This document shows, in pieces, positions 30,540 to 47,240 of a stretch of 64,000 bases of DNA. This DNA comes from Coriobacteriales bacterium (GTDB taxonomy: Bacteria > Actinomycetota > Coriobacteriia > Coriobacteriales > UBA8131): positions 3,038 through 67,037 of the forward strand of contig JAISGO010000038.1 in NCBI GenBank assembly GCA_031263025.1, given 5' to 3'. Position 1 is the first letter of the stretch. Every line of letters starts with the position of its first letter. Below the pieces are notes generated by a model that did not search any database, was not told the DNA's origin, and saw only the letters and a program-made list of their open reading frames with translations. A program made the translations under genes and the position numbers.

Positions 30540-30836
30540 GTGAGCACCGTTATGACCACTGCCACATTGACCCGTTGGGGCAACAGCCAAGGCATCCGTC
30601 TCCCCAAAGAACTCTGCCGCGCATGCGGGCTCCGTGTCGGCGCTAAGATCGCGATTAGCCGGGAACGCGATGACAGCATCGTGCTCAAAGCAGTCAAGGA
30701 TCCCGCGCGACCTCACTATCAGCGCAGAAGGATCATGACTACAGAAGAACTGTTCAAAGATTGGCATCCTAGCTCTGCCTCCAAGATCAAGGAAATGGAT
30801 TGGGGCGAAGACGTCGGCAGCGAGGTGGTCGAATGA
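30540..30836 (+). CDS. mazE: MazE/AbrB-type antitoxin
   Basis: LTRWGNSQGIRLPKEL swapped-hairpin motif; GTG 30540 (ATG 30552 alternative). Confidence 0.8.
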   Translation: MSTVMTTATLTRWGNSQGIRLPKELCRACGLRVGAKIAISRERDDSIVLKAVKDPARPHYQRRRIMTTEELFKDWHPSSASKIKEMDWGEDVGSEVVE

Positions 30837-31168
30837 GCGGTTATCGCCAAGGGGAGCTGATCGAGGTGAACTTCTCCCCCAGCCGGGGCCACGAGCCGCT
30901 CAAGACCCGGCCGGCCGTGGTCGTGAGCGCCGATGCCCACAACGCCATGTCCAGCCTCGTCTGCGTCTGCCCGATCACCAGCCTGGATAACGGCTACCCC
31001 CTCCATGTGAAATTGCCCAAAGGTAGCTACGCTCATGGGGCGATTTGCGTCGAACAGCTCCGTTCCGTCGACCTCGTCGCCAGGGGGGCCATCTCTTCTG
31101 GCGAGTTCCTTGACGAAGACACGATGGATCAAATCCTCGAGCGCGTTGGTGCTATCTTTAGCATCTAG
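30833..31168 (+). CDS. mazF: MazF/PemK endoribonuclease toxin
   Basis: GELIEVNFSPSRGHE, TRPAVVVS, VCPITS; ATGA overlap with mazE. Confidence 0.85.
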   Translation: MSGYRQGELIEVNFSPSRGHEPLKTRPAVVVSADAHNAMSSLVCVCPITSLDNGYPLHVKLPKGSYAHGAICVEQLRSVDLVARGAISSGEFLDEDTMDQILERVGAIFSI

Positions 31169-31755: not shown

Positions 31756-31904
31756 GCATGGGCGAATGCAACAATGTACCAAGTACCTCGTTACATGCGA
31801 AACTTAGCGTGAGTAGCGTCTGACAAGTTTGGGAATTTTTCACAGATTATTTGCGAAGCAGCTCGGGGAGTAGAAACGGATGTTGCTTGCTGTAAAATCC
31901 AGTC

Positions 31905-32156
31905 ATGGGACCTAATGATATTCAGATATTGAAAGCACGAAGATCGGATGATTCGCCCGATTCCAGCGTGTTAGTGGTATCAGACAACCTGCTAAAGCTA
32001 AATGACGGACAGGAAGTTTATGCCTTTACTAATAGGCACGGCGGTATAACTATTATCACGGACGCAAACCAAGCAGCTGAGGCAAAGTTCTATGACAGGA
32101 ATCCAGTTGACGCGTGGCCCCCTGATGCGGCAGCGATGGCTAGGGCGGCGTGGTAA
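31905..32156 (+). CDS. hypothetical 83-aa protein, first gene of the Mrr-like operon
   Basis: stop lies 3 nt before the Mrr-like ATG; lower GC than core. Confidence 0.4.
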   Translation: MGPNDIQILKARRSDDSPDSSVLVVSDNLLKLNDGQEVYAFTNRHGGITIITDANQAAEAKFYDRNPVDAWPPDAAAMARAAW

Positions 32157-32159
32157 TTT

Positions 32160-33605
32160 ATGTATTACTATAGGCTGCCAAATCCATTTATTCAGCATTG
32201 CTACAAATGCGGCAAGAAGATCAACACTGAACATGGCCATGGTGAAAAATTTGTTTTCATGGCTGAGCTTGCAGATTATTTTAGCGATTGGGATGACTTT
32301 TTAAAGGCCAATCCAAAGGCAGCTACAAAAGAAGGACGGCATTATATCTTTTGCAAATCTTGTGCAAACCTGCTTGGCTGGCGCAGCGAAACCCAGATAG
32401 CTAAAGCACAAGAGAAAGAAAGATTGAGGGCCGTTAAGCAAGCCGAAAAGGTTGCTGTCAAAGAGGAAAAAGAACGACTGGCACAAGAAAAAATTGAGCA
32501 AGCTACTAAAGACCACAAAGCATACATTCAAGAAAACGCACCGAATTTTGAAGTTTTAGATCACTATCCAAAATTATTTGAACGGATTGAAGCAGAATGG
32601 CGGAATCCGGAATTAGCTACTTTTCTGGCGTTGAAAAATCACGGCAGAGCAACCGCAGATGAAGATAGTAAATTGTTCCCAGATATTTGCGTTATTCCAC
32701 AGGGAATTAGTTATAAGTGCGACTGCAACGATGAAAATAATATTGCAGTTATTGACATAGATTTACCTGATAGGGACTCAGTACCAAATATTCTTGGATT
32801 CCGATCGGCTGGGAACCACTTACCATTAAAAATGAATAAGTCTGAAACGAGAAAATTCTACGATGAAACCGTCTCGTGCCAAATATTGCTTGGAACAAAG
32901 ATTGCAATCGAACAAAATCTTAGTTCCAAAACAGTCGTTGCAAATGGCATAGTCAATTATGTTGACGGGGCAACTGGCCAAGATAAGCGCACATGTATTT
33001 TGTCCGTCGAAATTCCGCGTGAAAAATTTGAACGGATTAATTTCGATCGCATTGATCCTTATGAGTGCGTAAAGAGCTTTAAACCGATAATGGCAGGAGT
33101 ACTGCAAAATCTAACGCCTGTAAAACCGATTTTGACTTTTGACAAAAATGATCATCGTTTTATTGAATCTTCTGAAATCGTTGATAATTTAAGTGAAAAT
33201 CAAAACCTCGCGACTATGCTTTGGGAAGATTTTGAGCACTTGGTACGCGAGCTCTTCGAGCGTTATTTTGAGGGTGATGGAACCGAAGTAAGGGTTACGC
33301 AAGCCAGCCGCGACGGCGGAGTTGACGCGATAGCTTTTGATCCGGATCCGATCAGGGGCGGCAAGTTTGTGATACAGGCTAAGCGTTACAACAACGTGGT
33401 TCCGGTTTCTGCTGTGCGTGATTTATACGGCACAATGATTAATGAAGGCGCAACAAAAGGCATTCTTGTTACGACGGCCTATTACGGACCCGAAACCTAC
33501 GATTTTGCCAAAGATAAACCTATTTCGCTAATTGCCGGCTCCAATCTGGTTTATATGCTGGAACAGTATGGATATCACTTTCGAGTGGATTTAAAGGAAG
33601 AATAA
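32160..33605 (+). CDS. Mrr-like restriction endonuclease domain protein with ~340-aa N-terminal region of unknown function
   Basis: C-terminal WEDFEHLVRELF, DGGVDAIAF, FVIQAKRY, GILVTT (PD-(D/E)xK Mrr_cat). N-terminal CYKCG..CKSC pairs and a Lys/Glu coiled coil. Confidence 0.75.
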   Translation: MYYYRLPNPFIQHCYKCGKKINTEHGHGEKFVFMAELADYFSDWDDFLKANPKAATKEGRHYIFCKSCANLLGWRSETQIAKAQEKERLRAVKQAEKVAVKEEKERLAQEKIEQATKDHKAYIQENAPNFEVLDHYPKLFERIEAEWRNPELATFLALKNHGRATADEDSKLFPDICVIPQGISYKCDCNDENNIAVIDIDLPDRDSVPNILGFRSAGNHLPLKMNKSETRKFYDETVSCQILLGTKIAIEQNLSSKTVVANGIVNYVDGATGQDKRTCILSVEIPREKFERINFDRIDPYECVKSFKPIMAGVLQNLTPVKPILTFDKNDHRFIESSEIVDNLSENQNLATMLWEDFEHLVRELFERYFEGDGTEVRVTQASRDGGVDAIAFDPDPIRGGKFVIQAKRYNNVVPVSAVRDLYGTMINEGATKGILVTTAYYGPETYDFAKDKPISLIAGSNLVYMLEQYGYHFRVDLKEE

Positions 33606-33607
33606 AA

Positions 33608-33670
33608 ATGAAACTTTATCATTATACCTCTGCCGATGCAGCTTTAAATATTCTTGAGCACGGATTGTAA
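33608..33670 (+). pseudogene. 5' fragment (17 codons + 3 foreign codons) of the DUF2971 gene split by the 29.3-kb insertion
   Basis: MKLYHYTSADAALNILE|HGL*; continues in frame at 62955 (see findings). Confidence 0.65.
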
Positions 33671-33871
33671 AACGAACTGTCACATCCCTCCTCAACGCCC
33701 TCATGCGACTATTCCGTTGTAAATTCGAGGCATTTTGCCGCCTCGTTGCGTTAAGTATAGCGCTTATTTTTGATTTGTCAAGGCACGTATTATTTTCCGT
33801 TATGAATAACGGTGTAGTGTGGCGGTTGTTTGTATAAAGCGCCAGGTTTCGCATAATCGAAAGTCGTTTAT

Positions 33872-33920
33872 GAAGCATATTTTATACTAGCATAGTATAA
33901 GCTAGTATAAAATATGCTTC
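33872..33920. repeat. perfect 20-bp inverted repeat spanning the 3' end of the left transposase gene
   Basis: GAAGCATATTTTATACTAGC (33872-33891) / GCTAGTATAAAATATGCTTC (33901-33920). Confidence 0.8.
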
Positions 33921-35053
33921 AACTCTTCTAAGAACTTCTCCTTAGCGCTTCGATAACCAAGAGACTTGCGCCATTTGTTGTTGACCTTTTCGGTAGCCCG
34001 CGCCACGCCTTCGGCCCCGTATTCTGCGATGTTGTGGCCCTTCCTTATCCCCGCCTGGCGCAGTAGTCCGTTGCAGTTCTCGTTCGACCCTCTCTCCCAA
34101 GAATGATAAGCATGCGCATAGTAACAGCGCGTCCGGCACATGTGGATAAAGCCGAGTAGCTCGTACACGGAGGTCTCAAAGTCGTCTGGCCTCGTGAACT
34201 CGGTTCCGTTATCCCAAGTGATGCTCTTGAATATCGCCTGGAATAGCTTACTTCCGATGGTAAGCTCTAAATCATCGAACCATGCGACGACATTCTCATG
34301 GTCTTTTGATTCCAGGTAGGCAGTCAGGTATATGCGGGTCTTGCGCTCAAGTAGGGTCAAGACGACCTCTTTCCTGCCGCCGCGCTTACCGACCACTAGA
34401 TCTCCCTCCCAATGACCGAACTCCTCTCGCGCTTCTACCTCGGCCGGCCGCTCGTCGATGGATTCGCCTCGGGTATACACCTGCTTGTAGGTGTACTTCT
34501 TATGCTTCGCCTTGCGCCTCATCTCGGCCATCGGCAATTTGTCTGCCGAGTAGCCGAGCTTACCATTGTTGGCGTAGTTGTAGATGGTCTTCGTGCAGAC
34601 CGTCTCCGGCAGCTTCCCTTCCATCCTGGCCCGGCCGCAAGCCTCATCAGGCGAGCGCCTGTTCTCGATTATCTCTTGCGCGTACCAAAGCATCGCCTTT
34701 CGGTGCTGCGGTCTTTCGAGTTTGAGCTTCGGTCCCTTTCTCGCCCAACGCGCTTCTGCTCTTCTTTGCGCCACGTCCTCATGATAATAAGGAACCTCCT
34801 CCAACGCTTCACCATCTGACCGGCGTACCCGCCGCACTTCGAGGATTGAACCGCGTTCTATCTCGCGATAGATGGTCTTGCGGCACCTACCTAAGATCTT
34901 GGCGATCCTTGCCACCGGAAGATGAAGCCGGTTCAGAAACAAGTCCAGCGCGTTACGTTCCTTGTCGTTGAAGTACTTACCTTTTCGCTTTCGAACGCCT
35001 TCTTCATCGAGTCCGTCAAGGTACTCCTCCGCAAGTCCGTATATCTTGGGCAA
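33902..35053 (-). CDS. IS30-family DDE transposase (left)
   Basis: HWEGDL, TWDNGTEF, WERGSNENCNGLLR catalytic motifs; N-terminal HTH; TTG start. Confidence 0.85.
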   Translation of the reverse strand: MPKIYGLAEEYLDGLDEEGVRKRKGKYFNDKERNALDLFLNRLHLPVARIAKILGRCRKTIYREIERGSILEVRRVRRSDGEALEEVPYYHEDVAQRRAEARWARKGPKLKLERPQHRKAMLWYAQEIIENRRSPDEACGRARMEGKLPETVCTKTIYNYANNGKLGYSADKLPMAEMRRKAKHKKYTYKQVYTRGESIDERPAEVEAREEFGHWEGDLVVGKRGGRKEVVLTLLERKTRIYLTAYLESKDHENVVAWFDDLELTIGSKLFQAIFKSITWDNGTEFTRPDDFETSVYELLGFIHMCRTRCYYAHAYHSWERGSNENCNGLLRQAGIRKGHNIAEYGAEGVARATEKVNNKWRKSLGYRSAKEKFLEELKHILY

Positions 35054-35173
35054 ATCAGTTCGTTCCTTTCAATGCATAGTATATGCTTTGCTATACTATG
35101 CGGCTATCCGTTTCTTCTATCAGTTTGTCGATAAGATTTTACCCCTGCGGCGCACACCTTTAGCGTTTTCCGC

Positions 35174-35208
35174 TTGACAATAGTATAGTATATGCTATAC
35201 TATACTAT
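35174..35208 (+). promoter_or_regulatory. parA(L) promoter TTGACA-16-TATACT overlapped by the palindrome ATAGTATAGTATA-TGC-TATACTATACTAT
   Basis: TTGACA 35174-35179; IR 35180-35192 / 35196-35208; related IR GCATAGTATA/TATACTATGC at 35074-35101. Confidence 0.6.
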
Positions 35209-35269
35209 GTTAGGCTACTATAGAATAGTCTTCAATGTACTATGCTATGCGTGAGAAAGAGAGGTATGT

Positions 35270-35818
35270 ATGAAAACCGTTTTGTTGGTGAACCAAAAGG
35301 GAGGAAGCGGCAAGACCACCATCGCTGATGAGTTGGTCTTCAACCTGGAGCGAAAAGGCCACAAGGTGACCTTCCAATCGCTTGACGCCCAAGGCGGTTC
35401 TATACACTATGGCAGTATGCCAGACGAGGACACCGAGTACCGCGTGATCGACTCGCCCGGCGCCATGCCGAAAGAGTTCAAGAACTGGTGTTCGGCGGCT
35501 GACATCATCATCATCCCGACCAAACCCGGGATTCCCGACCTTGCGCCTTTCAATCGTACCTACTCCGCCGCCCGGCAGGCCGCGCCGAAAGCGCACATCG
35601 GCATCGTCGTCAATTTCTACGACGCCAGGCGGGTGGTCGATCGCAACTTCGTGGAGGAGTTCGTTAAGCCGCTCATGTTAGACGTCTTTGCCTATATCCC
35701 TTCCACCACCCAGGTGGCCCGCGCCCAGGCTGAACAGATCTCCGTCTTTGACTATGACCGCAACTCGGAAGTGGCTAAGGCGTTTGACGCTCTCGCAGAC
35801 AAGGTGTTGTCTCTATAG
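35270..35818 (+). CDS. parA: ParA/Soj-type partition ATPase (left)
   Basis: deviant Walker A NQKGGSGKTT; ~45% identical to 60782..61333. Confidence 0.85.
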   Translation: MKTVLLVNQKGGSGKTTIADELVFNLERKGHKVTFQSLDAQGGSIHYGSMPDEDTEYRVIDSPGAMPKEFKNWCSAADIIIIPTKPGIPDLAPFNRTYSAARQAAPKAHIGIVVNFYDARRVVDRNFVEEFVKPLMLDVFAYIPSTTQVARAQAEQISVFDYDRNSEVAKAFDALADKVLSL

Positions 35819-35879
35819 CAAATACTATACTTTGCTATACTATGCTATTATATAATATGCTAAGAAAGGAATATGCTAA

Positions 35880-36224
35880 ATGAGTACAGACATTTTCGCA
35901 GAGTCGGCGCAAGCTGCTTTAGACGCACAAGACGAAGCGATGTACGCACCGGTCCCTATGGATAAGCCCGATACGAGCAAGCGCCCGAAACGTGCCTCCC
36001 ACAAGACCTCAAAGCCGACGACTTCCGCCAGGAAAGCGGACACCGCACCCGGCGAGTATCACGTCAAGCCTGCGAACGAGCGACGCGACTGTAAGGTGCT
36101 CGTTGGGTTCACTCCGTCCGAGCGCGAGCTACTCGAGCTCATTAAGACCGCCGAGGAACGTCCGCTCACACAGGTGATCGTCCGGGCGGTCAAGGAATAC
36201 TATAAGAACCACTACCAAGCCTAG
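35880..36224 (+). CDS. ribbon-helix-helix (CopG-like) protein
   Basis: C-terminal RRDCKVLVGFTPSERELLELIK..VIVRAVKEYYKNHY; ~50% identical to 60170..60385. Confidence 0.6.
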   Translation: MSTDIFAESAQAALDAQDEAMYAPVPMDKPDTSKRPKRASHKTSKPTTSARKADTAPGEYHVKPANERRDCKVLVGFTPSERELLELIKTAEERPLTQVIVRAVKEYYKNHYQA

Positions 36225-36240
36225 TTGAAGGAGGGGCAGC

Positions 36241-37644
36241 ATGAGACATAAGTCTCGCGAGAAGATAACCACCTATACCCTCATGAACAAGAACACCCCT
36301 GTTCTTGAGTTCGAGTATGCTCTTGCTTCCTCCACTATAACTGCTATCACCGCTCTGATTAACCCGGCGTATGCGCCTCTCGACGCATCACGCGCTTATA
36401 GCGATGGCGTGATAACCGAGGAATCCCTCAACGAGTGGTGGAGGAAGCGGGGCATCCCCTCTTCCCGTCAACATTTAGCAAACGCAGAAGACGTACTGCC
36501 GGCTTCGATGATGGAGCTACTTGAACACAACTATGGTCTATCGCTTTCCGATCAGTATTGGCTCAACGATTCGCGCTCGCCCAAGAGATGGGCCGAAGTG
36601 AACTTCTTCACCAATCCTTTTAGTGTCGACATCGGCCGTGCGCTTTTCGGCGGGGTGTCTTCGGAGGAGGCATTAAGCAACGACTTTTCCCTTATCTCAC
36701 CCGACGTTACCACCGGCGGGGTCTTACAAAAGAAGTGGATTATCGACGAAGGCCAACGCGTTCTCGTCAAAGGCGCCGAGGGCCAAGATCGCCAACAGGT
36801 CTTTAACGAGGTGATTGCCACCGAGCTGTATAGCAGATTGCTACCGCCAGATGAATACGTTACTTATAAGCTTATCAAAGAGGGCCATAAAGTCTATTGC
36901 GCATGCGGGGACATGATAGACATTGACGAAGAACTTGTAAGCGCAAAAGCGATTCGGCTGCATTTCGCCCGAGAGGAGAAAACGAGCGACTACGAACATC
37001 TCGTAAATTCTTACGAAAAGCTCGGCGTCAGCCATGCGGTTACAGCTACTGCCTTTTCCAAAATGCTTGTCTGCGACGCGCTTATGGCAAACGAGGATAG
37101 GCATACGGGTAACTTCGGCGTCATTAGGGACGTGAACAGTCTGGAGATCAAACGCATCGCCCCCCTTTGGGATACCGGTAACTCTCTCTTCTTCGACAAT
37201 GCCAGTCTTCTTTTGACACCTGGCTACGAATGGGAGTTCCGTTCAAAACCGTTTGCGGCGCGTATGAAGACCCAACTGGAATATGTGGACGATTATTCTT
37301 GGTATGACCCCAAATCCCTCAAAGGGTTCAGAGATTACGTGGCAGAGAAACTTTCGGAGATCGCACTTTATAAATCGTCTGGCCTAGACGTAGCGATTGC
37401 CGCTAGTGTCGATTGCCGCCGCGACTATATAGACAAGCAAGCTCGCGAATGGCAACTGAATCACAGCCGGAATCATATGTACAACGAAGCCCAAATCGCT
37501 AAACCCAGCGACGGGAAAAATCAAGTTCAACCGAACCTCGGTCCGCACCACATGGAGGACCTTGTTGCCCAAACGACAAGGGTTTCCGAAGCCCGCGAAG
37601 AGACGCGCGGAGGGCATGGCGGGCACGAAGAACCTAAACGCTAG
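36241..37644 (+). CDS. HipA-like Ser/Thr kinase toxin homolog with portable C-terminal tail
   Basis: HipA_C catalytic loop MANEDRHTGNFGVI; RBS GGAGGGG; tail NLGPHHMEDLVAQTTRVSEA. Confidence 0.7.
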   Translation: MRHKSREKITTYTLMNKNTPVLEFEYALASSTITAITALINPAYAPLDASRAYSDGVITEESLNEWWRKRGIPSSRQHLANAEDVLPASMMELLEHNYGLSLSDQYWLNDSRSPKRWAEVNFFTNPFSVDIGRALFGGVSSEEALSNDFSLISPDVTTGGVLQKKWIIDEGQRVLVKGAEGQDRQQVFNEVIATELYSRLLPPDEYVTYKLIKEGHKVYCACGDMIDIDEELVSAKAIRLHFAREEKTSDYEHLVNSYEKLGVSHAVTATAFSKMLVCDALMANEDRHTGNFGVIRDVNSLEIKRIAPLWDTGNSLFFDNASLLLTPGYEWEFRSKPFAARMKTQLEYVDDYSWYDPKSLKGFRDYVAEKLSEIALYKSSGLDVAIAASVDCRRDYIDKQAREWQLNHSRNHMYNEAQIAKPSDGKNQVQPNLGPHHMEDLVAQTTRVSEAREETRGGHGGHEEPKR

Positions 37645-37656
37645 AAGGAAACGGTG

Positions 37657-38460
37657 ATGACGACCCAAGACCTCATAAACGCGCTACTGGAGCAACGCAG
37701 GTTGCAGATAAACGGTAACGTCTACTGGCAGACCCAGATCGACCTGGCCTATAACTCGAATAGGATCGAGGGTTCCCAACTCACCCACGAACAGACCCGC
37801 TACATCTTCGAGACACAGACGATCTCCGGCGAAAACGTTCCCGTAGACGACGTGGTGGAGATGAAGAATCACTTCCGCATGTTCTATTACATGCTGGACC
37901 ATTTCAAGGAACCCGTGAGCGTCGAGACCATCCAAAGCTATCAGGCAATCCTCAAGGCCGGCACCTTTATGTCGGAGGACCCGAAGATGAACGTGGGGGG
38001 ATGGAAGCTCATCCCGAACGCGGTCGGCAACACCACTACGTCGCTACCGGGACAAGTCGATAACGACGTGAGGGCGCTCCTCGCCGCCTATAACAGGCAC
38101 GTCGAATCCGGCCACGAGGTGACGCTCACGCAGATCGCCGCCTTCCATGCACAGTTCGAGGCGATCCACCCCTTCCTCGACGGCAACGGGCGTACCGGTC
38201 GCATCATCATGTTCCACCAATGTCTCCAGGCGGGACTTATCCCGCCCATCGTCATGGACAAGACCAAGGCGGCCTACTACGCCGGCCTCGACCGCTGGCA
38301 GAACCATAACGACAGCAAACCGCTTCTGGACTATCTCGAAGAATGTCAGGCTGATTATCGCTCAGAATGCGAGTTCCTCCTTGAGGGCAAAGGCAAAGAT
38401 TTGAGTGGCCGCAAACCAGCCGATGTTGGCTACGAGGACATCTTCAAGGCGGACGAATAA
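37657..38460 (+). CDS. Fic-domain AMPylase, class II (N-terminal inhibitory motif)
   Basis: HPFLDGNGRTGR canonical Fic motif; SNRIEG matches (S/T)xxxE(G/N); starts 9-12 nt after the HipA-like stop. Confidence 0.85.
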   Translation: MTTQDLINALLEQRRLQINGNVYWQTQIDLAYNSNRIEGSQLTHEQTRYIFETQTISGENVPVDDVVEMKNHFRMFYYMLDHFKEPVSVETIQSYQAILKAGTFMSEDPKMNVGGWKLIPNAVGNTTTSLPGQVDNDVRALLAAYNRHVESGHEVTLTQIAAFHAQFEAIHPFLDGNGRTGRIIMFHQCLQAGLIPPIVMDKTKAAYYAGLDRWQNHNDSKPLLDYLEECQADYRSECEFLLEGKGKDLSGRKPADVGYEDIFKADE

Positions 38461-38477
38461 GCTTTAGAAACTCCTTG

Positions 38478-38497
38478 ACGCCGCCTGCGGGCGGCGT
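38478..38497 (+). terminator. rho-independent terminator candidate after fic
   Basis: ACGCCGCC-TGCG-GGCGGCGT followed by TTCCTTT. Confidence 0.6.
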
Positions 38498-38537
38498 TTC
38501 CTTTGGCGGCTTTAGCCGCCTCATGACGTTCTTTCCA

Positions 38538-38590
38538 TTACCGTCTCAAGGTTGTATAATCACATTTAACGGTAACGCTGAATAGCCCGT
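38538..38590 (+). other. oriT candidate (left module): 7-bp IR with 24-nt loop followed by GGTAACGC
   Basis: TTACCGT (38538-38544) / ACGGTAA (38569-38575) then CGCTGAATAGCCC; same layout as the right module; upstream of mobC. Confidence 0.4.
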
Positions 38591-38810
38591 TGGTGACAAA
38601 TTAACTCCGCTAATTTTCTCCAACGGCATTCACTCCGAGTCCTGCCAGACTCGGAGAGGCAAACCGCCCGAGGCTTCGCCACCCGGTCGGTTTCGCACAA
38701 AAGACGCAGACTTTGTGCGGGCGTGTCGGCCTGAGCCGCCAACGTCAGGGGGAGACCCCTGAGACCCCTGGTAATGGAGTCCGCAACGACCGAAAGGAGT
38801 TGCGGACATA

Positions 38811-39242
38811 ATGGCAAGACCTCACTTGAAAGATAACGGCAGAAGCCGGAGGGTTCACTTCGCTGTCACTCCAAAGGAGTATTCGAAGATAAAGGTTCAG
38901 GCTAAAAGTCTGAACCTTACCATCTCCGCCTATATTCGTCAGCGTGCCCTCTCAGATGTTACTGTCTTTTACGCCGGTGACGACGAAGGTCTCGCTAAGA
39001 TCCGTTCACAGCTACTCCGCGCTTTCGCAAGGAACAATCAAGCGGTAAAGGCAATCAACTACATTAGTAACGGTCTTCGCGAAAACTACTTTCCAGATTC
39101 GATTAGGGAAGACCTCAAGAATTTCGCAAACGAGAACGCTCCTTATTTCTCCGATACCGCGAATCAAATCAGCGATTGCCTTGCCGGTATTTCTGACTTC
39201 TATCATTCATTCAACAAGCTTCTTAAAGAAGGGAGAATCTAA
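38811..39242 (+). CDS. mobC: MobC-type relaxosome accessory protein (left)
   Basis: RRVHFAVTPKEYSKIK..ISAYIRQRAL RHH; TAATG overlap with next gene. Confidence 0.65.
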   Translation: MARPHLKDNGRSRRVHFAVTPKEYSKIKVQAKSLNLTISAYIRQRALSDVTVFYAGDDEGLAKIRSQLLRAFARNNQAVKAINYISNGLRENYFPDSIREDLKNFANENAPYFSDTANQISDCLAGISDFYHSFNKLLKEGRI

Positions 39243-39742
39243 TGCTAGACATTTGCGCTAAAAGGGATACGCCTTACGTGTATCCAAGCCTGCGTAGTCT
39301 CATTTCCGAGGACTGTCGTTTCAGTCTCTTCAAGGCGGATAGTCTGCTTAAAGGAGACATAATCGGCGAGTATCATGCTAAACTTTGCGGTCTATTCTGG
39401 GGGAGGCAACCTCGTAGCGGTCGAGCTACGCCTCTAGTCGCCTGTCTCTTCCTTATCTATACGGCAGACGAAAATAACAAAATCGTTGAACTTGAAAATA
39501 AGTTCATTACCGCTTCCGCTTGGGATAATAACCTTCATAAACCTCTTTTCGACTCGCCTTCGGCACCGCCACCAGACGACACTCTAGCTTATTCTGATTG
39601 GCTCGCTTCATTGCATATTGACGAATCCGCAGAACCGCAAAAATATCTTGCACTTAGGAGCATCCCCATCGGTAGTTATATCACTTGCACATTCGCCCTC
39701 AACCGTAACGGGCATGGGGTACTTCGCGACTGGATCGTCTGA
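39242..39742 (+). CDS. hypothetical protein (left module only)
   Basis: translationally coupled on both sides (TAATG, TGATG); no counterpart between mobC and relaxase on the right. Confidence 0.5.
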   Translation: MLDICAKRDTPYVYPSLRSLISEDCRFSLFKADSLLKGDIIGEYHAKLCGLFWGRQPRSGRATPLVACLFLIYTADENNKIVELENKFITASAWDNNLHKPLFDSPSAPPPDDTLAYSDWLASLHIDESAEPQKYLALRSIPIGSYITCTFALNRNGHGVLRDWIV

Positions 39743-41244
39743 TGCCTGAACTCCGTCTTCAAGCCGCACACCGTAAATGCTTTGGCGTTGCTGAGTATCT
39801 ACGTTACGGGAAAGGCGAAAGCTACTTTACGAACAAACGTGAAGGAAAGACTCGTGTTCGCGCCTTCGGTGGTTTTAACCTTGCCGGCGACATCTTCGAC
39901 TGGGATCAGCAGATGGACGAAACTCGAGAGATGGCCGGAAACGACCTCCCGTATCGTGGGCGCCGGGCACGGACTTACAATCACTTCGTCCTCTCGCCCG
40001 ATCCTGCGGACGGGCTTTCCTATGAAGATGTCCTAGCCCTCGCGGAAGAATACGCCGCGCACTTCTTCGGCGACGGTGAAGTCCGTGGTACCATTGGCCA
40101 GTTTGAGAGCGCCATTATCATACATGACGACGGAACGAACAATGTGGTACATGCGCATGTGATTGTGAACAATACCGATCTCGATACCCTCAAGCGTATT
40201 CATCGTGACCGCAGAGACATCAAGGAAATGTATGACTTCGCGGAAGAGCTTGCGAAATCGCATGGGTATCATTCTTTTACGGAGACACATGAGTCTGTTC
40301 CTGCTAAGGTCGGCGAGTTCGAGATGGGAACAAGGATATTCTCCAAGCCTAGACCGATTAGTTTTGCCGAGCGTCACGCGATGGAAGCGCATGAAGGCTA
40401 CTCCTGGAAGGAGGATCTCGCCCAGCGTGTCCGGGTCGCCTATGAATGCGCGAGCGACATGAAGGGTTTCGTCCTTGCCTGCAAGGACCTCGGGGTGACG
40501 GTGGAGAAGTCGAAGGCGAAAAACTACGCCGGCGACTTCCTCTACCGTATGGCCGACGAGCCCACGCATTGCTGTCGTGCCAACAAGCTCGGCACAGACT
40601 ACCGCTCCGGCAACCTCACCCGCCACTTCGCCCGAAACGAGAAGCGTGGCCTCTGGAAGCCACGCGATGGCCAGGCGGCCGAAGTCGCGAAGGTGTTCTG
40701 GCCGAAGGGTATCCGCCGGGTCGGCAACATCGAGAAGGGAAGCGGTATCAGCCTCCACGAGGCCTTCCAGGTGATTGACTTCATGCGCGAAGTGCATGTG
40801 AGCGACTACACGCAGATAAAGCGGATTAGACCCTCTTCCGAGGACATGCGCGAGCGTCTGGAACGTTTCGCCTACGTCGCCGAACACGCCCACCTCAAGG
40901 TCAGGGACACCACGAAACCGGCCGCGAAGCCGCAGGCAAAGCAAAGCGCACCTATCGTCGAGGACGGCAAGATCGTCGGCACGGCGGACGCGAAGACCAA
41001 GGCGCTGTTCGCCACCGTGAACAAACAAGCGGCCGCAAGAAAGAAACAGATTGCAGCTATGACACCATCGGAGCGTGCTGCCGCAGCAGTCGCAGCACAA
41101 CGAAACGCACAACGAAGCCGGCCACAGCAAGCACAGCGCCGCGCCGCGCCTCAGCCACAACGTCCCGCGCCGCGACCCCAAGCGAGACCGCAACCGCAGC
41201 CACAGCGCAGCCGTCCGCCTACCCGCCACTCTCCGCAACGCTAA
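39742..41244 (+). CDS. MOBQ/MobA-VirD2-type relaxase (left)
   Basis: IHDDGTNNVVHAHVIVNNTD (HxDx..HxH), N-terminal Tyr region AEYLRYGKG; Pro/Gln/Arg-rich tail. Confidence 0.8.
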   Translation: MPELRLQAAHRKCFGVAEYLRYGKGESYFTNKREGKTRVRAFGGFNLAGDIFDWDQQMDETREMAGNDLPYRGRRARTYNHFVLSPDPADGLSYEDVLALAEEYAAHFFGDGEVRGTIGQFESAIIIHDDGTNNVVHAHVIVNNTDLDTLKRIHRDRRDIKEMYDFAEELAKSHGYHSFTETHESVPAKVGEFEMGTRIFSKPRPISFAERHAMEAHEGYSWKEDLAQRVRVAYECASDMKGFVLACKDLGVTVEKSKAKNYAGDFLYRMADEPTHCCRANKLGTDYRSGNLTRHFARNEKRGLWKPRDGQAAEVAKVFWPKGIRRVGNIEKGSGISLHEAFQVIDFMREVHVSDYTQIKRIRPSSEDMRERLERFAYVAEHAHLKVRDTTKPAAKPQAKQSAPIVEDGKIVGTADAKTKALFATVNKQAAARKKQIAAMTPSERAAAAVAAQRNAQRSRPQQAQRRAAPQPQRPAPRPQARPQPQPQRSRPPTRHSPQR

Positions 41245-41270
41245 TCGCAAAAGACAGAAAGGAACCTACC

Positions 41271-42014
41271 ATGCAAGTCAAGATCTACTACCAATCCGGT
41301 CGGGTCGCCGTCTTCGATACGGCGAACTTCACCATGCCCGAGCCTTTCGGTCCCAAGGACAAGAACATCCTCACCAACTTCGAGCTGAACCTCGACAGCT
41401 GCCAGAACGAGGATTCGCTCGGCCTTTACATCGACGTCTATTACTACGACATCGACCCTGGTGTCGGTAAACGACCGGAAACCGCCACAGCCCTCCGGGC
41501 CGGGAGGAAGGAATCGAAACTCACCTTTCCGAGCATCCGATCCGGCTACCGCTTGCTTTTAACTGACAAGGAGGGACTTGCGGACGTCGGTTATATCGAA
41601 GTCGATGGAAAGATAGTAATGTGGCGCCAAGGCGACGACCTCATCAACGCCAACAAGTTCGAGATCCAGCAGTTCATCTGCTACAACTCCACAACGGCGG
41701 AATCTTATAACACTAAGGTCTTAGACCTCTTCCGCTACGTCAGGAACGCCGAGGGCGGACGCGAAGAACACGGACCGACCGATAAGCAGATCGCCGAACG
41801 TCTCGGTTACACCGAGGCGGCGCTTTACAAGGCCATGCGCGACGAGGCCGCGAACGTCGATACTATCGAAGACGAGGACATGGCAGGAGTAGGGGAGGAA
41901 GATGAGAGCGAAAGCGATACTCCCGAGCCACCAAGTCCGCAAGAACAGCCCCAGGAAGCCCCCTCAGAGGCCATTGAGGGCCTTGCAGACGAATACCTAG
42001 CCAATCTCTCGTAG
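41271..42014 (+). CDS. conserved hypothetical protein with HTH-like segment and acidic tail (paralog of 56026..56742)
   Basis: MQVKIYYQSGRVAVFDT vs MKVNVYFENGRVNIFDT; TDKQIAERLGYTEAALYKAMRDE; follows the relaxase in both modules. Confidence 0.6.
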   Translation: MQVKIYYQSGRVAVFDTANFTMPEPFGPKDKNILTNFELNLDSCQNEDSLGLYIDVYYYDIDPGVGKRPETATALRAGRKESKLTFPSIRSGYRLLLTDKEGLADVGYIEVDGKIVMWRQGDDLINANKFEIQQFICYNSTTAESYNTKVLDLFRYVRNAEGGREEHGPTDKQIAERLGYTEAALYKAMRDEAANVDTIEDEDMAGVGEEDESESDTPEPPSPQEQPQEAPSEAIEGLADEYLANLS

Positions 42015-42053
42015 AACCCGTCAGGACGCCCCGAGAAGCCCTCTGGGCGTCCT

Positions 42054-42339
42054 CCTGCCCTCTTCTCTCGTTACCCTTCCCCAATTTTCCAGTCAACTTT
42101 TACCTCTCCGCTTTTCCCGCTACCTCCTCCACACCGCATTTCCTAACCCGTCACCTGCACCACCTCCTCCTTCGGACTTCCCCTCTGCCTACTCCTCCAT
42201 CTAGCCACAGGACCCGCCTACGGTCAAGGGCCGCTCGGGGCCATCACGGTTACCGCTGGACGCGCGCATACGCCCGCGCCTCAGCTCCCTAAGACGTGAT
42301 CGCCCCTGCGCTTGAACCCTTGACCGTAGGCGGGTCCTG
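42054..42339 (+). other. non-coding module: ~150-nt polypyrimidine tract plus 132-nt long-stem hairpin (left)
   Basis: perfect 23-bp stem CAGGACCCGCCTACGGTCAAGGG (42208-42230) / its complement (42317-42339); conserved loop GGTTACCGCTGGACG...CCTCAGCTCCCTAAG. Confidence 0.7.
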
Positions 42340-42397
42340 CGGCGTCATGCCGGCGTAGACAAAGGGACGAAGTCCCAAGATCAGAAAGGAGCCTCAC

Positions 42398-42817
42398 ATG
42401 CAGGCGACACAGGAAAAGCGGATGGTGAATCTGGAGGACAAGCGGACAATCGAGCAGGCAAAAGTCATTGCCATCAAATACCTGGAGAAAGGTAACTTCA
42501 AGATCGTCGCGCAGGATTACACCTCGACGGCGGGCGTCGCTGATTACGTCTTCTACGAGAAAGACGATTTGGTATTCGCAAGCGTCGGCCTCGGGGACAA
42601 CGAGGGGAACTTCCCGGAGCATGATTGCTCTAGCGAACGCAAGGCGGCCGAGAGGATCGCCCTCGACTATTTCACCTCCCACCCCCACATCAACTCCTGC
42701 CGCGTCCGCTTCGATAACATCGACGTCTGCTTCGCAGGCCCCTCCGGCCAGCAGGCGATGGTGAAGCACCACCGTGACGCCTACTCCACAGACGACGACT
42801 ACTCGCCCATCGGGTAG
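42398..42817 (+). CDS. YraN/UPF0102-like (endonuclease fold) protein, catalytic residues apparently lost
   Basis: layout AKVIAIKYLEKGNFKIVAQ..GVADYVF..LVFASVG..RFDNIDV parallels YraN; paralog of 55250..55660. Confidence 0.55.
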   Translation: MQATQEKRMVNLEDKRTIEQAKVIAIKYLEKGNFKIVAQDYTSTAGVADYVFYEKDDLVFASVGLGDNEGNFPEHDCSSERKAAERIALDYFTSHPHINSCRVRFDNIDVCFAGPSGQQAMVKHHRDAYSTDDDYSPIG

Positions 42818-42882
42818 CGCCGCCGGTGAGGGGGCGTTTCGCCCCCTCACCTTTCCTGCGCGTTTGTCGACGCTCGCTTCCA

Positions 42883-43145
42883 GGTAGAATAGGGGAGCGA
42901 GTTAGCGTTTCGCCGGGTGCGCCTAATCTTCCCGTGGGGAGAGGAGGTGATGCCCTTATGGATGTCTTACAGCTGATAACCGCAGCGATCCGGCTTTTAC
43001 TGGTCGTGGCGAAACTGCCGAAAGCGTTCAGGCGTTTACGCCAGGAAAGGAAGAAGCGTCCATAAAGGACGCTTCCTAATCTTAATCGGCGCACCCGGCG
43101 TCAGTCACAACCACGGGGCGCTAACTCGCTTGATTATACCACGGC
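42883..43145. repeat. 263-bp direct repeat, copy 1 (copy 2 = 53466-53728)
   Basis: read directly, ~93% identical, same orientation in both copies. Confidence 0.9.
42958..43065 (+). CDS. 35-aa hydrophobic/basic peptide (type-I-toxin-like candidate), copy 1
   Basis: MDVLQLITAAIRLLLVVAKLPKAFRRLRQERKKRP; SD GGAGAGGAGGTG; identical peptide in copy 2 despite 6 nt changes. Confidence 0.5.
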   Translation: MDVLQLITAAIRLLLVVAKLPKAFRRLRQERKKRP

Positions 43146-43157
43146 TTGAATAAGGAA

Positions 43158-43379
43158 AAGGCCGGGCACACTACGGCCCGGTCTTATTCGGTTGATGAAA
43201 CGTTTCAATCCACGTGCCTACTGAGGATAGACACGACGAGGCTATTATACGTCGTCTTCTCTGCCTACACCGCGCTGATTATTCCTATTCTGCTTTTGAA
43301 GGGTTCGGCCTGCTTGCGCGGCGCTCGCCCTTGTCGCTCCGGCGACTGTATCATCCATCTTTCGAGGACCGAGGTGAGG
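43158..43379. repeat. ~220-bp direct repeat, copy 1 (copy 2 = 43858-44077): tail-coding segment plus terminator
   Basis: read directly; contains hairpin CCGGGC..GCCCGG followed on the minus strand by a U-rich run. Confidence 0.85.
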
Positions 43380-43409
43380 ATAGCCTTTTTGGCTTTTTTG
43401 CTCGACACG

Positions 43410-43832
43410 CTACATCCTCGTTAAGACGTTATTTGACACATAGAGGTTGCGGCGTCTGAACTCCGGAGGACTGTCGTCTCGCATGACTTTCACGAGTTCT
43501 GGCCTCAGCTCCCCTATAGGCCTTCCAGCGAGCAAAGGCCGATCAAGGAAATACTGCGGCTTCTCGGTCCAAGTGGGTACGCGCAGGTTAAAATCATGTG
43601 CGAGCTTTTCGGCCTCTGCGGCATATTCCGCCATGTCGTCGCATGAAACGTCATAGCCATCTTGCGGGATAGGTTCATACTCGATGAACGACTGTCGCTG
43701 TCTCGGTTTGGCCGCGTAAAAAGCATCGAGGAAATTGCCGTTTGCAGTTGCCGGATCCACGCCTAATGCGCGTTGTGCCATCACTTCACGGAAGTTCAGC
43801 GGTCGCCTATGTAGCAAATCCCTCATTCGCAT
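43410..43832 (-). CDS. hypothetical 140-aa protein ending at a TAG that is in frame with a 54-codon shared tail
   Basis: ORF ..NNVLTRM-TAG-RVEQKSQKGYPHLGPRKMDDTVAGATRASAAQAGR..REDDV* (43409-43245). Confidence 0.5.
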   Translation of the reverse strand: MRMRDLLHRRPLNFREVMAQRALGVDPATANGNFLDAFYAAKPRQRQSFIEYEPIPQDGYDVSCDDMAEYAAEAEKLAHDFNLRVPTWTEKPQYFLDRPLLAGRPIGELRPELVKVMRDDSPPEFRRRNLYVSNNVLTRM

Positions 43833-43942
43833 ATTTTACCACGGCATCAAGAAAGACAAGGCCGGGCACTACGGCCCGGTCTTATTCGGTTGATGAAACG
43901 TTTCAATCCACGTGTCTACTGAGGATAGACACGACGAGGCTA

Positions 43943-44788
43943 TTATACATCGTCTTCTCTGCCTACACCGCGCTGAGGGTTCCTGTTTTGTCCTTGGAAG
44001 TCCCTTCCTGCTTGCGCGGCGCTCGCCCTTGTCGCTCCGGCGACTATATCATCCATCTTCCGAGGACCGAGGTGAGGTACAGCCGGCTTAGATTTATCCT
44101 CGTTAATTTTCTGTCCCGTTCTCTCTTTCGAGAAGTCAGTACCGACAAGGCAATCCTCATAAAGGAATAGCTTCAAGGGGGTCGGTTCGTTCGTTTCGTA
44201 GAAGTCCGTGAGCGCTTTCCTGAACCGGCTTAACTTGTTCTCCGCGATAGCGAGGATGCCGAACCCCTGAGAAATGAGGTAATGATTCGCTGCGAGTTGC
44301 GCCGTCCGTTTATTGCCGTCGAAGAAAAGCTGCTTACGACAGACCCAGCACATTATGTCGAGGCCCTTCTCGGGGCCTTCGGGTCCACGTAACATGCTCT
44401 CGAACCCTTCCTTATCCATCTGTTCGTTTGGAATGTCGGGTCGCCATGTCGTGCCGCCGATCCTCACGTCCACCGTCCTGACTTTCCCAGGTTCCCTCGT
44501 AACCCCGGCCTCGCCGATAAGCTGGTTGAACTCTTTCAGCATCCGGAAATCAAGTGGCACCTCGATTTCCTGCAAGCAATACTCCCAAGCGTGTTTGAGG
44601 TTGTTGATGGCGATGGTCTCGTTTACGGAGAGACCTGACACGGTTCTCCCCTCGAAGATCTCGGCGGTGTCCGGAAAAGTTACGTTGATTCCCTCTAGCC
44701 TGGCCTCTTTCCATATACTATCGACCACAAGACGCTTGGCGTACCAAACGTTCTCCTCTTGCGTCATATCGAACTTGTTCTCGAACAT
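43943..44788 (-). CDS. Fic/Doc-family protein with non-canonical motif (Gln in place of catalytic His) and portable C-terminal tail
   Basis: CRKQLFFDGNKRTAQLAANHYL aligns to HxFx(D/N)(A/G)NKR; N-terminal ARLEGINVTF. Confidence 0.7.
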   Translation of the reverse strand: MFENKFDMTQEENVWYAKRLVVDSIWKEARLEGINVTFPDTAEIFEGRTVSGLSVNETIAINNLKHAWEYCLQEIEVPLDFRMLKEFNQLIGEAGVTREPGKVRTVDVRIGGTTWRPDIPNEQMDKEGFESMLRGPEGPEKGLDIMCWVCRKQLFFDGNKRTAQLAANHYLISQGFGILAIAENKLSRFRKALTDFYETNEPTPLKLFLYEDCLVGTDFSKERTGQKINEDKSKPAVPHLGPRKMDDIVAGATRASAAQAGRDFQGQNRNPQRGVGREDDV

Positions 44789-44814
44789 TATCTTTCCTAG
44801 CTTATTCTAACAGC

Positions 44815-46497: not shown

Positions 46498-46499
46498 AG

Positions 46500-47110: not shown

Positions 47111-47132
47111 AGTCTGCTCCTTTCTTTAATAT

Positions 47133-47161: not shown

Positions 47162-47191
47162 GTGAGAAATGCGGATTCTTACGATAAAGTG

Positions 47192-47215: not shown

Positions 47216-47240
47216 GTCTGCTTCGGCACTCCTCGCGAGG

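What the first reader, a model, noticed from the sequence alone, without database searches (positions are those of the whole stretch)
31905..33670. Small ORF + Mrr-like endonuclease (long novel N-terminus) + DUF2971 operon: a candidate defence locus knocked out by the mobile element
Three low-GC genes are spaced by 3 and 2 nt:
- 31905..32156, 83 aa.
- 32160..33605, with an Mrr_cat PD-(D/E)xK domain preceded by ~340 aa. That N-terminal region has CxxC pairs, a Lys/Glu coiled coil and an unrecognised middle domain.
- The DUF2971 gene starting at 33608.

The trio sits beside mazEF in an accessory patch. Endonuclease-plus-DUF2971 pairings are the kind of gene pair seen in defence islands.

The third gene is precisely the target of the 29.3-kb mobilizable insertion. 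The insertion would therefore disable the host locus it landed in.
Basis: partly seen in the sequence, partly recalled or inferred. Interest (0 to 1): 0.6.

Follow-up and report, generated by a model that had tools for sequence, protein, structure and literature searches.

The report
Two neighbouring defence genes, one broken
A 2.85-kb foreign-looking DNA patch in a Coriobacteriales genome holds a stand-alone Mrr-type restriction nuclease next to a stand-alone DUF2971 (Aristaios-like) gene that a 29-kb mobile element has split, so these are ordinary defence-island neighbours, not a new three-part system.

Summary
The ORFs lie at 31905-32156 (83 aa) and 32160-33605 (481 aa, Mrr_cat at residues 351-467). 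A DUF2971 gene starts at 33608 and is split after codon 17 by a 29,296-bp insertion flanked by a 12-bp direct repeat. Removing the insertion restores a 338-aa DUF2971 protein with every invariant family residue.

It matches the PADLOC Type IV model PDLC03663 (E 1e-44) over its coiled coil, middle domain and nuclease. Only about the first 90 residues are orphan.

In 80 loci from other species, neither DUF2971 nor the 83-aa protein lies nearby (0/80), and no neighbour family recurs. DUF2971 relatives stand alone in the five contexts inspected. Aristaios, a DUF2971 protein, is a published single-gene antiphage system.

The three genes form one low-GC cassette between mazEF and hipBA and are probably co-transcribed. 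Nothing indicates they depend on each other. The insertion breaks only DUF2971; the nuclease gene is intact.

Verdict: new members of known kinds, low to moderate interest.

The parts
31871..31898 (+). Promoter-like site (TAGAAA-16-TAAAAT) ending 6 nt before the ATG of the 83-aa ORF. It is a possible promoter for all three genes, perhaps giving a leaderless transcript.
   Evidence: Consensus scan, 9 of 12 matches. This is weak evidence on its own.
31905..32156 (+). 83-aa ORF of unknown function (NCBI tag LBL67_04230), 49% GC.
   Evidence: ORF. The only real homologue is P0124 (82 aa, 67% identity), from another contig of the same MAG. There are no Pfam, NCBIfam, PADLOC or PHROG hits.
32160..33605 (+). 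Intact 481-aa Mrr-type restriction endonuclease, a putative Type IV enzyme, 41% GC.
   Evidence: Pfam Mrr_cat E 3.8e-29. PADLOC mREase_IV PDLC03663 E 9.8e-45 over residues 87-469. All 8000 candidates scored had E <= 0.001, and the top 120 are 40-57% identical. All invariant family residues are present.
32160..32384 (+). Orphan N-terminal segment (residues 1-75) with C14xxC17 and C65xxC68, a possible zinc ribbon. It replaces the family's usual N-terminal module.
   Evidence: Read from the sequence. pLDDT is below 50. No homologue was found for residues 1-92. No frameshifted relic of the family's N-terminus is present. NCBI starts the gene at M34, JGI at M1.
32385..32600 (+). Lys/Glu-rich helical segment, probably a coiled coil (residues about 76-147).
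   Evidence: AF2 helices at 91-125 and 127-147. It aligns with the family's helical region.
32685..33194 (+). Family-wide middle domain (residues 176-345) with an unassigned fold. It is the inferred target-recognition module.
   Evidence: It is conserved across 47 aligned homologues. The domain model has pLDDT 84.6 and pTM 0.78. It has no significant PDB match (best E 0.06) and no hit in a profile search of PDB sequences. It has one BFVD match at E 4e-6 and matches phrog_38135 at E 7e-5.
33210..33560 (+). Mrr_cat PD-(D/E)xK nuclease domain (residues 351-467). It carries E359, D385/D389 and Q406-x-K408.
   Evidence: Pfam hit. These columns are invariant in A1. Foldseek matches AspBHI, MspJI, EcoT38I and AF1548.
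33608..33658 (+). 5' stub of the DUF2971 gene (codons 1-17, MKLYHYTSADAALNILE). It holds the invariant H5-Y6-T7 motif.
33647..33658 (.). Left copy of the 12-bp direct repeat AATATTCTTGAG.
   Evidence: There are exactly two copies in the window.
33659..62942 (.). Inserted mobilizable element. It has two diverged mirror-image modules (IS30-like DDE transposase, ParA, relaxase) around pilus, sortase and toxin cargo.
   Evidence: Pfam scans. Module comparison. The same junction is seen in an independent Logan assembly of SRR14710920.
62943..62954 (.). Right copy of the 12-bp direct repeat.
62955..63920 (+). 3' part of the DUF2971 gene (codons 18-338, 35% GC). It is annotated as a 318-aa ORF starting at 62964.
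   Evidence: It contains W111-x-G-Y114 and E221-x-E223-x-R225, which are invariant in A5.
30540..31168 (+). Context: the mazE/mazF toxin-antitoxin pair at host GC, upstream of the cassette.
   Evidence: Pfam MazE_antitoxin E 2.4e-9 and PemK_toxin E 1.7e-22.

Best explanation
What it is: a roughly 2.85-kb low-GC cassette, acquired horizontally, sitting between the host's mazEF and hipBA loci. It holds three co-oriented, tightly packed genes that are probably transcribed together.

Gene 2 is an intact single-polypeptide Mrr-type restriction endonuclease from a very large, widespread family. Inferred mechanism:
- the coiled coil makes the protein oligomerise;
- the conserved middle domain recognises foreign, probably modified, DNA;
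- the C-terminal PD-(D/E)xK (E...D...QxK) domain cuts it;
- no partner gene or methyltransferase is needed.

Gene 3 is a stand-alone DUF2971 protein, a predicted ADP-ribosyltransferase of the DarT/AbiG-like HYE clade. It is in the same Pfam family as the single-gene abortive-infection system Aristaios. A 29.3-kb mobilizable element inserted after codon 17. That cut the invariant N-terminal HYT motif away from the rest of the catalytic core and most likely inactivated the gene.

Gene 1 (83 aa) is a lineage-restricted orphan of unknown role.

The three genes are neighbours in a defence island, not one obligate system. The insertion removes one layer (DUF2971) and leaves the nuclease in place.

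Shown: the gene structures, family memberships, lack of co-conservation, the clean in-frame repair and the GC boundaries.
Inferred: modification dependence, the ART activity, co-transcription and loss of function.
For: - Family membership of the nuclease: Pfam Mrr_cat and PADLOC mREase_IV E 9.8e-45 over residues 87-469.
At least 596 of 600 matched stretches in GTDB species genomes encode a relative, across bacteria and archaea.
- The nuclease is intact. It keeps every invariant column of the 47-sequence alignment, including E359, D385, D389, Q406 and K408.
- No conserved partner. All-vs-all clustering of 846 neighbouring ORFs gives a largest neighbour cluster of 6 of 80 loci. Among 117 downstream and 145 upstream neighbours, no Pfam family occurs in more than 5. 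A DUF2971 profile, an 83-aa profile and tblastn all find nothing in the 80 loci.
- DUF2971 works alone elsewhere. Relatives are monocistronic in five contexts. Aristaios is a 316-aa single-gene DUF2971 antiphage system with an ART fold (PMC11381338). DUF2971 is predicted to be an HYE-clade ART related to DarT and AbiGi (PMC12522546).
- The repair is clean. The repaired protein aligns full-length with relatives, and H5, Y6, T7, W22, W111, G113, Y114, E221, E223 and R225 are invariant.
- The cassette is discrete in GC.
Against: - The 2-3-nt spacing and a single plausible promoter would also fit a true operon of interacting proteins.
- All three genes fall in one discrete low-GC block, so they may have arrived together.
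- No member of this Mrr subfamily has been characterised as far as I could find. The 'Type IV' label is therefore a database prediction.
- The middle domain has no known fold relative, so its role as a DNA reader is inferred.
- The motif I histidine of DUF2971 is reported as poorly conserved family-wide (PMC12522546). A 318-aa N-terminally truncated ORF also remains, so complete loss of function is not proven.
- The only close copies of the locus come from one organism and sample, so co-conservation could be tested only at family level.
Confidence: 0.68

Rival explanations
1. One reading: the three genes form one integrated defence system. For example, the small protein regulates or senses, the nuclease and the DUF2971 transferase act together, and the insertion therefore disables the whole system.
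For: The genes share a strand and are 3 and 2 nt apart. One promoter-like site lies upstream. All three sit in one discrete low-GC block of about 2.85 kb.
Against: DUF2971 and the 83-aa protein co-occur with this Mrr family in 0 of 80 loci, and no neighbour family recurs. DUF2971 stands alone in five other contexts and works as a single gene in Aristaios (PMC11381338). The 83-aa protein has a paralogue elsewhere in the same MAG. That MAG contributes no second detectable relative of this DUF2971 and no second Mrr-family protein among the top 120 hits.
Confidence: 0.1
2. The genes are not antiphage defence. The DUF2971 protein would be a toxin or effector used against other cells or the host. 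The Mrr-like protein would be a selfish or stress-activated nuclease that does not restrict phage.
For: About 18% of DUF2971 proteins are predicted to be secreted effectors (PMC12522546). No member of this Mrr subfamily has been tested, and none surfaced in the literature searches.
Against: No signal peptide or secretion genes were seen next to the locus. The locus lies between toxin-antitoxin pairs. Both proteins match PADLOC defence models. The neighbours of family members include integrases, methylases and STAND, HerA and Schlafen-type proteins, which are typical of defence islands.
Confidence: 0.12
3. The insertion is an adaptive counter-defence: the mobile element specifically targets DUF2971 genes to neutralise a barrier to its own spread.
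For: The insertion falls precisely inside a defence-type gene, 51 nt after its start.
Against: Only one insertion is known, and the same junction appears in both assemblies of one sample. The target is an AT-rich, partly palindromic 12-mer in a 35% GC gene within a roughly 60% GC genome. That fits a simple AT-rich target preference of IS30-type transposases (my own knowledge, not tested here). Metagenome scans found no other occupied or empty site.
Confidence: 0.08

Closest known systems
Putative Type IV methyl-directed restriction enzymes of PADLOC model PDLC03663 (mREase_IV), the large 520-530-aa 'restriction endonuclease' family
   Same: The coiled coil, the conserved middle domain and the C-terminal Mrr_cat all align (E 9.8e-45, residues 87-469; 40-57% identity to the top homologues). 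Every invariant residue is kept. Members occur as single genes with no conserved partner.
   Different: The first 90-135 residues differ. The family's conserved 'N-x-Y-L...K-x-I-K-A...W' N-terminal module is missing. In its place is an orphan segment with two CxxC pairs. The protein is also about 40-50 aa shorter.
E. coli Mrr (classic Type IV enzyme)
   Same: It has the same catalytic domain family (Pfam Mrr_cat) with a QxK-type active-site motif. It is a single polypeptide with no cognate methyltransferase.
   Different: There is no Mrr_N winged-helix domain (no Pfam hit). The protein is far longer (481 vs about 300 aa, from my own knowledge) and has a coiled coil and an unrelated middle domain.
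MspJI / AspBHI modification-dependent endonucleases
   Same: They are the best full-length structural matches in the PDB (4oc8 E 2e-8, 4f0p E 1e-7). The layout is the same: a recognition domain first, then a PD-(D/E)xK nuclease.
   Different: The match comes from the nuclease half. The middle domain searched on its own matches neither these proteins nor any SRA-like structure (best E 0.06).
Aristaios (lactococcal plasmid single-gene antiphage system, DUF2971, 316 aa; PMC11381338)
   Same: It is in the same Pfam family (DUF2971) and of similar size (338 aa repaired). Relatives occur as single genes on plasmids and islands. ART-type motifs are conserved.
   Different: Direct similarity to the Aristaios sequence was not tested because I did not have it. 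The closest relatives found here are only 23-30% identical. The gene here is interrupted.
DarT (DNA ADP-ribosyltransferase toxin of DarTG)
   Same: DUF2971 is reported to resemble DarT and AbiGi and to belong to the HYE ART clade (PMC12522546).
   Different: No DarG-like macrodomain antitoxin is adjacent. A profile search of the PDB found no significant sequence match.
IS30-family DDE elements, including ICE6013-type mobile elements that use an IS30-like transposase (from my own knowledge)
   Same: The insertion ends in IS30-like transposase genes (HTH_38 + rve) that point outward. It is flanked by a direct repeat of an AT-rich target.
   Different: There are two diverged transposases (55% identity). 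The 12-bp repeat is longer than the 2-3 bp usual for IS30. Eight extra bases sit between the repeat and the left inverted repeat. No conjugation genes were found, only relaxases.

Membership tests
Mrr-type (Type IV) restriction endonuclease | Mrr_cat PD-(D/E)xK domain above the Pfam threshold | tested here: met
   PF04471 E 3.8e-29, 101.6 bits against a cut-off of 21, residues 351-467.
Mrr-type (Type IV) restriction endonuclease | Catalytic residues intact (E...D...Q/E-x-K) | tested here: met
   E359, D385, D389, Q406 and K408 are invariant columns in the 47-sequence family alignment, which includes the query. Calling them catalytic rests on general knowledge of the fold.
Mrr-type (Type IV) restriction endonuclease | Mrr_N winged-helix DNA-binding domain, as in E. 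coli Mrr | tested here: not met
   No Pfam hit other than Mrr_cat, NA-iREase1 and a sub-threshold DUF7168 match. The N-terminal region has a different architecture.
Mrr-type (Type IV) restriction endonuclease | No cognate methyltransferase; the enzyme acts alone | tested here: met
   The cassette holds no methyltransferase. In the 80 family loci, DNA methylase domains appear in only 1 of 117 downstream and 3 of 145 upstream neighbours.
Mrr-type (Type IV) restriction endonuclease | Cuts only modified DNA | not testable with these tools
   This needs an enzyme assay. The PADLOC/REBASE-style label is a prediction.
PADLOC mREase_IV model PDLC03663 | Full-length match to the profile | tested here: inconclusive
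   E 9.8e-45, but only profile positions 156-525 of 544 are matched. The first 155 or so positions have no counterpart.
MspJI/AspBHI family | SRA-like base-flipping recognition domain N-terminal to the nuclease | tested here: not met
   The middle-domain model (pLDDT 84.6) finds no SRA, MspJI or AspBHI match in the PDB (best E 0.06).
DUF2971 / Aristaios-like single-gene system | DUF2971 domain above the Pfam threshold | tested here: met
   For the repaired protein: PF11185 E 4.1e-8, 34.9 bits against a cut-off of 22. It also matches PADLOC PDC-S31 at E 1.7e-6 and phrog_1762 at E 1e-23.
DUF2971 / Aristaios-like single-gene system | Conserved ART-type motifs (N-terminal H-Y-T, W-x-G-Y, E-x-E-x-R) | tested here: met
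   They are invariant in the 7-sequence alignment A5. The motif assignment follows PMC12522546.
DUF2971 / Aristaios-like single-gene system | Occurs and functions as a single gene | tested here: inconclusive
   Relatives are monocistronic in five contexts, and Aristaios works alone (PMC11381338). Here the gene lies 2 nt after the nuclease gene, so independence is inferred rather than shown.
DUF2971 / Aristaios-like single-gene system | Sequence similarity to Aristaios itself; antiphage phenotype | not tested
   The Aristaios sequence (pUCCL641_199, PRJNA1086404) was not available to me. The phenotype needs an experiment.
   0 of 80 loci of the Mrr-like family contain a DUF2971 or 83-aa relative within 6 kb. 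The closest DUF2971 relative has no Mrr neighbour.

The most novel reading that the evidence does not exclude
The three genes could still be a lineage-specific composite system. In that reading, the orphan 83-aa protein and the orphan zinc-ribbon N-terminus of the nuclease adapt a common Type IV-like nuclease to work with a DUF2971 ADP-ribosyltransferase, for example nuclease sensing coupled to ADP-ribosylation of DNA. The mobile element would then have inactivated that system.

A separate family-level reading also remains open. The roughly 170-residue middle domain is conserved in at least 596 species and has no solved structural relative. It could be a new kind of reader for modified DNA or another invader signal.
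Probability: 0.1. Interest if true: 0.55.

Novelty: new member of a known kind. Interest (0 to 1): 0.25.

Why it matters
For this locus the value is mainly in tidying up the annotation. It shows a defence-island patch, about 2.85 kb at 35-49% GC in a roughly 60% GC genome, wedged between two toxin-antitoxin loci. It also gives one clean example of a mobilizable element inserting into an Aristaios-type gene. The element may simply prefer AT-rich islands as landing sites.

The wider point concerns the family. An Mrr-type nuclease family present in at least 596 species has a well-folded middle domain of about 170 residues. That domain has no Pfam model and no solved structural relative. No member appears to have been characterised biochemically. 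Working out what the domain recognises would annotate thousands of 'restriction endonuclease' genes.

Tried and rejected
- 83-aa protein as an AbrB/MazE-like antitoxin (my guess from its sequence pattern): rejected. hhalign against the window's MazE gives probability 0.15%. There are no Pfam, NCBIfam, PADLOC or PHROG hits and nothing in the PDB by profile. Its hits to large repeat proteins in the representative library look like beta-propeller repeat composition, not homology.
- Middle domain as an SRA-like reader, as in MspJI/AspBHI: rejected. The full-length Foldseek hits disappear when the domain is searched alone.
- Middle domain as a degenerate copy of Mrr_cat or another PD-(D/E)xK domain: not supported. 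Local hhalign gives probability 0.4%. The only structural hints are sub-threshold Foldseek matches (E 0.1-1) to HincII, cap-snatching endonucleases, UL24 and Cas4.
- A frameshifted relic of the family's N-terminal module in other frames: none found.
- Homologues of nuclease residues 1-92: none found. That tool needs shared 5-mers, so this is weak negative evidence.
- Relatives of the 83-aa gene in JGI metagenomes or IMG/VR: none.
- Empty-site or other occupied-site copies in metagenomes: none.
- Other contigs carrying these proteins: only the same sample with the same insertion.
- Rfam and tRNA scans of the whole window: nothing.
- Literature searches for a characterised member of this Mrr subfamily: nothing specific.
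Full report
**Observation.** ORFs lie at 31905-32156 (83 aa) and 32160-33605 (481 aa) on the + strand, with a 3-nt gap between them. Two nucleotides after the second stop, ATG 33608 opens MKLYHYTSADAALNILE. The frame then enters unrelated sequence and stops at 33670. The 12-mer AATATTCTTGAG occurs exactly twice in the window, at 33647-33658 and 62943-62954. Deleting 33659-62954 (29,296 bp) joins the stub in frame to 62955-63920 and gives a 338-aa protein. This protein hits Pfam DUF2971 (E 4e-8). Aligned with six relatives, it carries every invariant residue: H5, Y6, T7, I15, W22, D31, E34, W111, G113, Y114, E221, E223 and R225. The junction itself recreates the conserved 'Q-x-[LM]-W' motif. 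The insertion, and the position at which it splits the gene, are therefore well established.

**Source and context.** The proteins are identical to entries from one 'Coriobacteriales bacterium' MAG on an 86,451-bp contig: MDR1016652 for the 83-aa ORF, MDR1016653 for the nuclease (annotated from M34), and MDR1016683 for the truncated DUF2971. Independent Logan assemblies of run SRR14710920 show the same two junctions. That argues against an assembly chimera, but it also means there is only one source organism. GC is 0.55-0.66 in the flanks and drops to 0.49, 0.41 and 0.35 in the three genes. It returns to 0.59 in a hipA/HTH pair that converges on the DUF2971 stop. Upstream lie mazE and mazF (30540-31168) and a zinc-ribbon ORF, all at host GC. 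The three genes thus form a discrete foreign cassette of about 2.85 kb between two toxin-antitoxin loci. One weak promoter-like site (31871-31898) ends 6 nt before the first ATG, and no terminator-like site on the + strand lies between the three genes. Co-transcription is plausible but not shown.

**The nuclease.** Pfam finds Mrr_cat at residues 351-467 (E 3.8e-29). The region in front of it is not as novel as proposed. The PADLOC model PDLC03663 (mREase_IV, Type IV methyl-directed restriction enzyme) matches residues 87-469 at E 9.8e-45. The top 120 are 40-57% identical and mostly 510-590 aa long, and come from Bacillus, Paenibacillus, Geobacillus, Anaerotruncus, Patescibacteria, Gemmatimonadota and others. 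They span many bacterial phyla plus Methanosarcina and Bathyarchaeia. A 47-sequence alignment shows a shared helical region, a conserved middle domain (query residues about 176-345) and the nuclease domain. The query keeps all invariant columns, including E359, D385, D389, Q406 and K408. The gene therefore looks intact and active.

**The orphan N-terminus.** What is peculiar to this copy is the first 90-135 residues. The family's conserved N-terminal module is absent. In its place is a segment with C14xxC17 and C65xxC68. It has no homologue in the search I could run, and no relic of the usual module survives in another frame.

**Structure.** AlphaFold2 with the family alignment gives a confident nuclease domain and middle domain but a disordered N-terminus. 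The full model's best PDB matches are AspBHI and MspJI (E 2e-8 and 1e-7), followed by EcoT38I and AF1548. To see whether the middle domain contributes, I modelled residues 176-345 alone (pLDDT 84.6, pTM 0.78). That model has no significant PDB match (best E 0.06) and no profile-sequence match in the PDB. It has one BFVD match to an uncharacterised siphovirus protein (E 4e-6) and a PHROG hit (phrog_38135, E 7e-5). It is not detectably related to the protein's own Mrr_cat domain (hhalign probability 0.4%). The middle domain is a real, widespread and unassigned fold. Its role as the target-recognition module is inferred from its position in the protein.

**Is the trio a unit?** I fetched 80 loci of the nuclease family from different species with 6-kb flanks and called 846 ORFs. 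All-against-all clustering gives the nuclease itself in 80 of 80 loci. The next largest cluster appears in 6 loci. One of its members, L002:3179-4309, carries the Pfam Phage_integrase domain. Pfam scans of 117 downstream and 145 upstream neighbours show no family in more than 5 proteins. The mix is typical of islands: integrases, methylases, AAA/STAND, HerA, Schlafen-type helicase, MazG-like, Fic and HTH/M78. A DUF2971 profile, an 83-aa profile and tblastn find no relative of either protein in the 816 kb of flanks.

In the other direction, this DUF2971 protein has only two detectable relatives in the large collection (29% and 23% identity). The nearer one sits beside a phage integrase with no nuclease nearby. 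On plasmids, 173 records carry relatives. In the four I opened, the gene is monocistronic among integrases, IS30 elements and toxin-antitoxin genes.

The 83-aa protein has one true homologue (67% identity), encoded on a different contig of the same MAG. That MAG contributes no second detectable relative of this DUF2971 and no second Mrr-family protein among the top 120 hits.

**What is known about DUF2971.** A survey of ADP-ribosyltransferases places DUF2971 in the HYE clade, with sequence similarity to DarT and AbiGi. It reports a strictly conserved Tyr and an ExE motif (PMC12522546). Aristaios, a 316-aa DUF2971 protein from a lactococcal plasmid, is a validated single-gene antiphage system with an abortive-infection phenotype and an ART fold (PMC11381338). 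PADLOC lists DUF2971-type proteins as single-gene candidates (PDC-S31), and the repaired protein matches them. The gene here is best read as an Aristaios-like stand-alone gene. Direct similarity to Aristaios was not tested.

**The insertion.** It contains two diverged mirror-image modules:
- Left module: IS30-like DDE transposase (33902-35053, minus strand), ParA, a HipA_C-like protein, Fic, a NikA-like protein and a MobA/VirD2 relaxase.
- Right module: IS30-like transposase (61527-62672, plus strand), ParA, AbiEii and a second relaxase.
- Centre: a SpaA-type pilin, a sortase and adhesin-like genes.

The paired proteins are 55% (transposase), 42% (ParA) and 33% (relaxase) identical. 'Mobilizable' is therefore right. 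No tyrosine or serine recombinase turned up among the 20 ORFs scanned. The element lies downstream of the nuclease gene, so it cannot affect that gene by polarity. It removes only the DUF2971 function. Even that loss is inferred from the separation of the invariant HYT motif from the rest of the protein, since a 318-aa truncated ORF remains. The target is an AT-rich, partly palindromic 12-mer in the most AT-rich gene of a GC-rich genome. A plain target preference is therefore the simplest explanation for where the element landed. I could not test this, because no other copy or empty site was found.

**Verdict.** The locus is a small acquired defence-island cassette that holds two stand-alone, already-known kinds of defence gene plus an orphan small ORF. 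One of the two has been knocked out by a mobile element. The most interesting residue concerns the family, not this locus: the uncharacterised middle domain of a very common Mrr-type nuclease.

Noticed in passing
window 33659-62954: The 29.3-kb insertion is not one simple element. It is two diverged mirror-image mobilization modules (IS30-like transposase, ParA, relaxase; 55%, 42% and 33% aa identity between the pairs). They enclose a SpaA-type pilin (48392-51460), a sortase (52472-53305) and adhesin-like genes. Both transposase genes point outward.
   Followed up: partly
window 33659-33679 and 62930-62942: The right tip (reverse complement GTAAAAGAAACTG) abuts the 12-bp direct repeat directly. 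The matching left inverted repeat GTAAAACGAACTG starts 8 nt inside the element, leaving CACGGATT between the repeat and the inverted repeat. A 12-bp duplication is also long for an IS30-type element. Neither point is explained.
   Followed up: partly
window 33887, 35071, 35180, 35215, 35815, 47126: Palindromic TATAGTATAG-type repeats of about 30 nt recur near the left transposase and ParA genes and once in the cargo region. They could be transposase-binding, centromere-like or oriT-related sites.
   Followed up: no
window 42877-43146 / 53460-53729 and 43169-43379 / 43867-44077: Two internal direct repeats lie inside the element: 270 nt at 93% identity and 211 nt at 91% identity. This suggests duplicated or recombined segments next to the two Fic-type and pilus regions.
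   Followed up: no
window 36241-38460 and 59024-60167: The element carries its own toxin-type cargo: a HipA_C-like protein next to a Fic protein in the left module, and an AbiEii nucleotidyltransferase with a small upstream ORF in the right module.
   Followed up: partly
L001 1165-2608 (just beyond window 64000): A host-GC hipA (Couple_hipA + HipA_C) and HTH_3 pair converges on the DUF2971 stop codon. The low-GC cassette is therefore bracketed by mazEF on one side and hipBA on the other.
   Followed up: yes
window 31333-31755: A 140-aa ORF at host GC lies between mazF and the cassette. It has two CxxC pairs (sub-threshold zinc-ribbon hits) followed by a long Asp-rich, low-complexity tail. Its function is unknown.
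   Followed up: no
window 32160 vs 32259: The start codon of the nuclease is annotated differently by the two sources. JGI and Logan aa from M1, while NCBI aa from M34. Only the M1 start includes both CxxC pairs and abuts the upstream ORF by 3 nt.
   Followed up: partly
window 29063-30394 (minus strand): A DUF2130 protein (E 6e-85) with an N-terminal zinc-ribbon motif and a long coiled coil lies just upstream of mazEF. It is part of the same accessory-looking neighbourhood.
   Followed up: no
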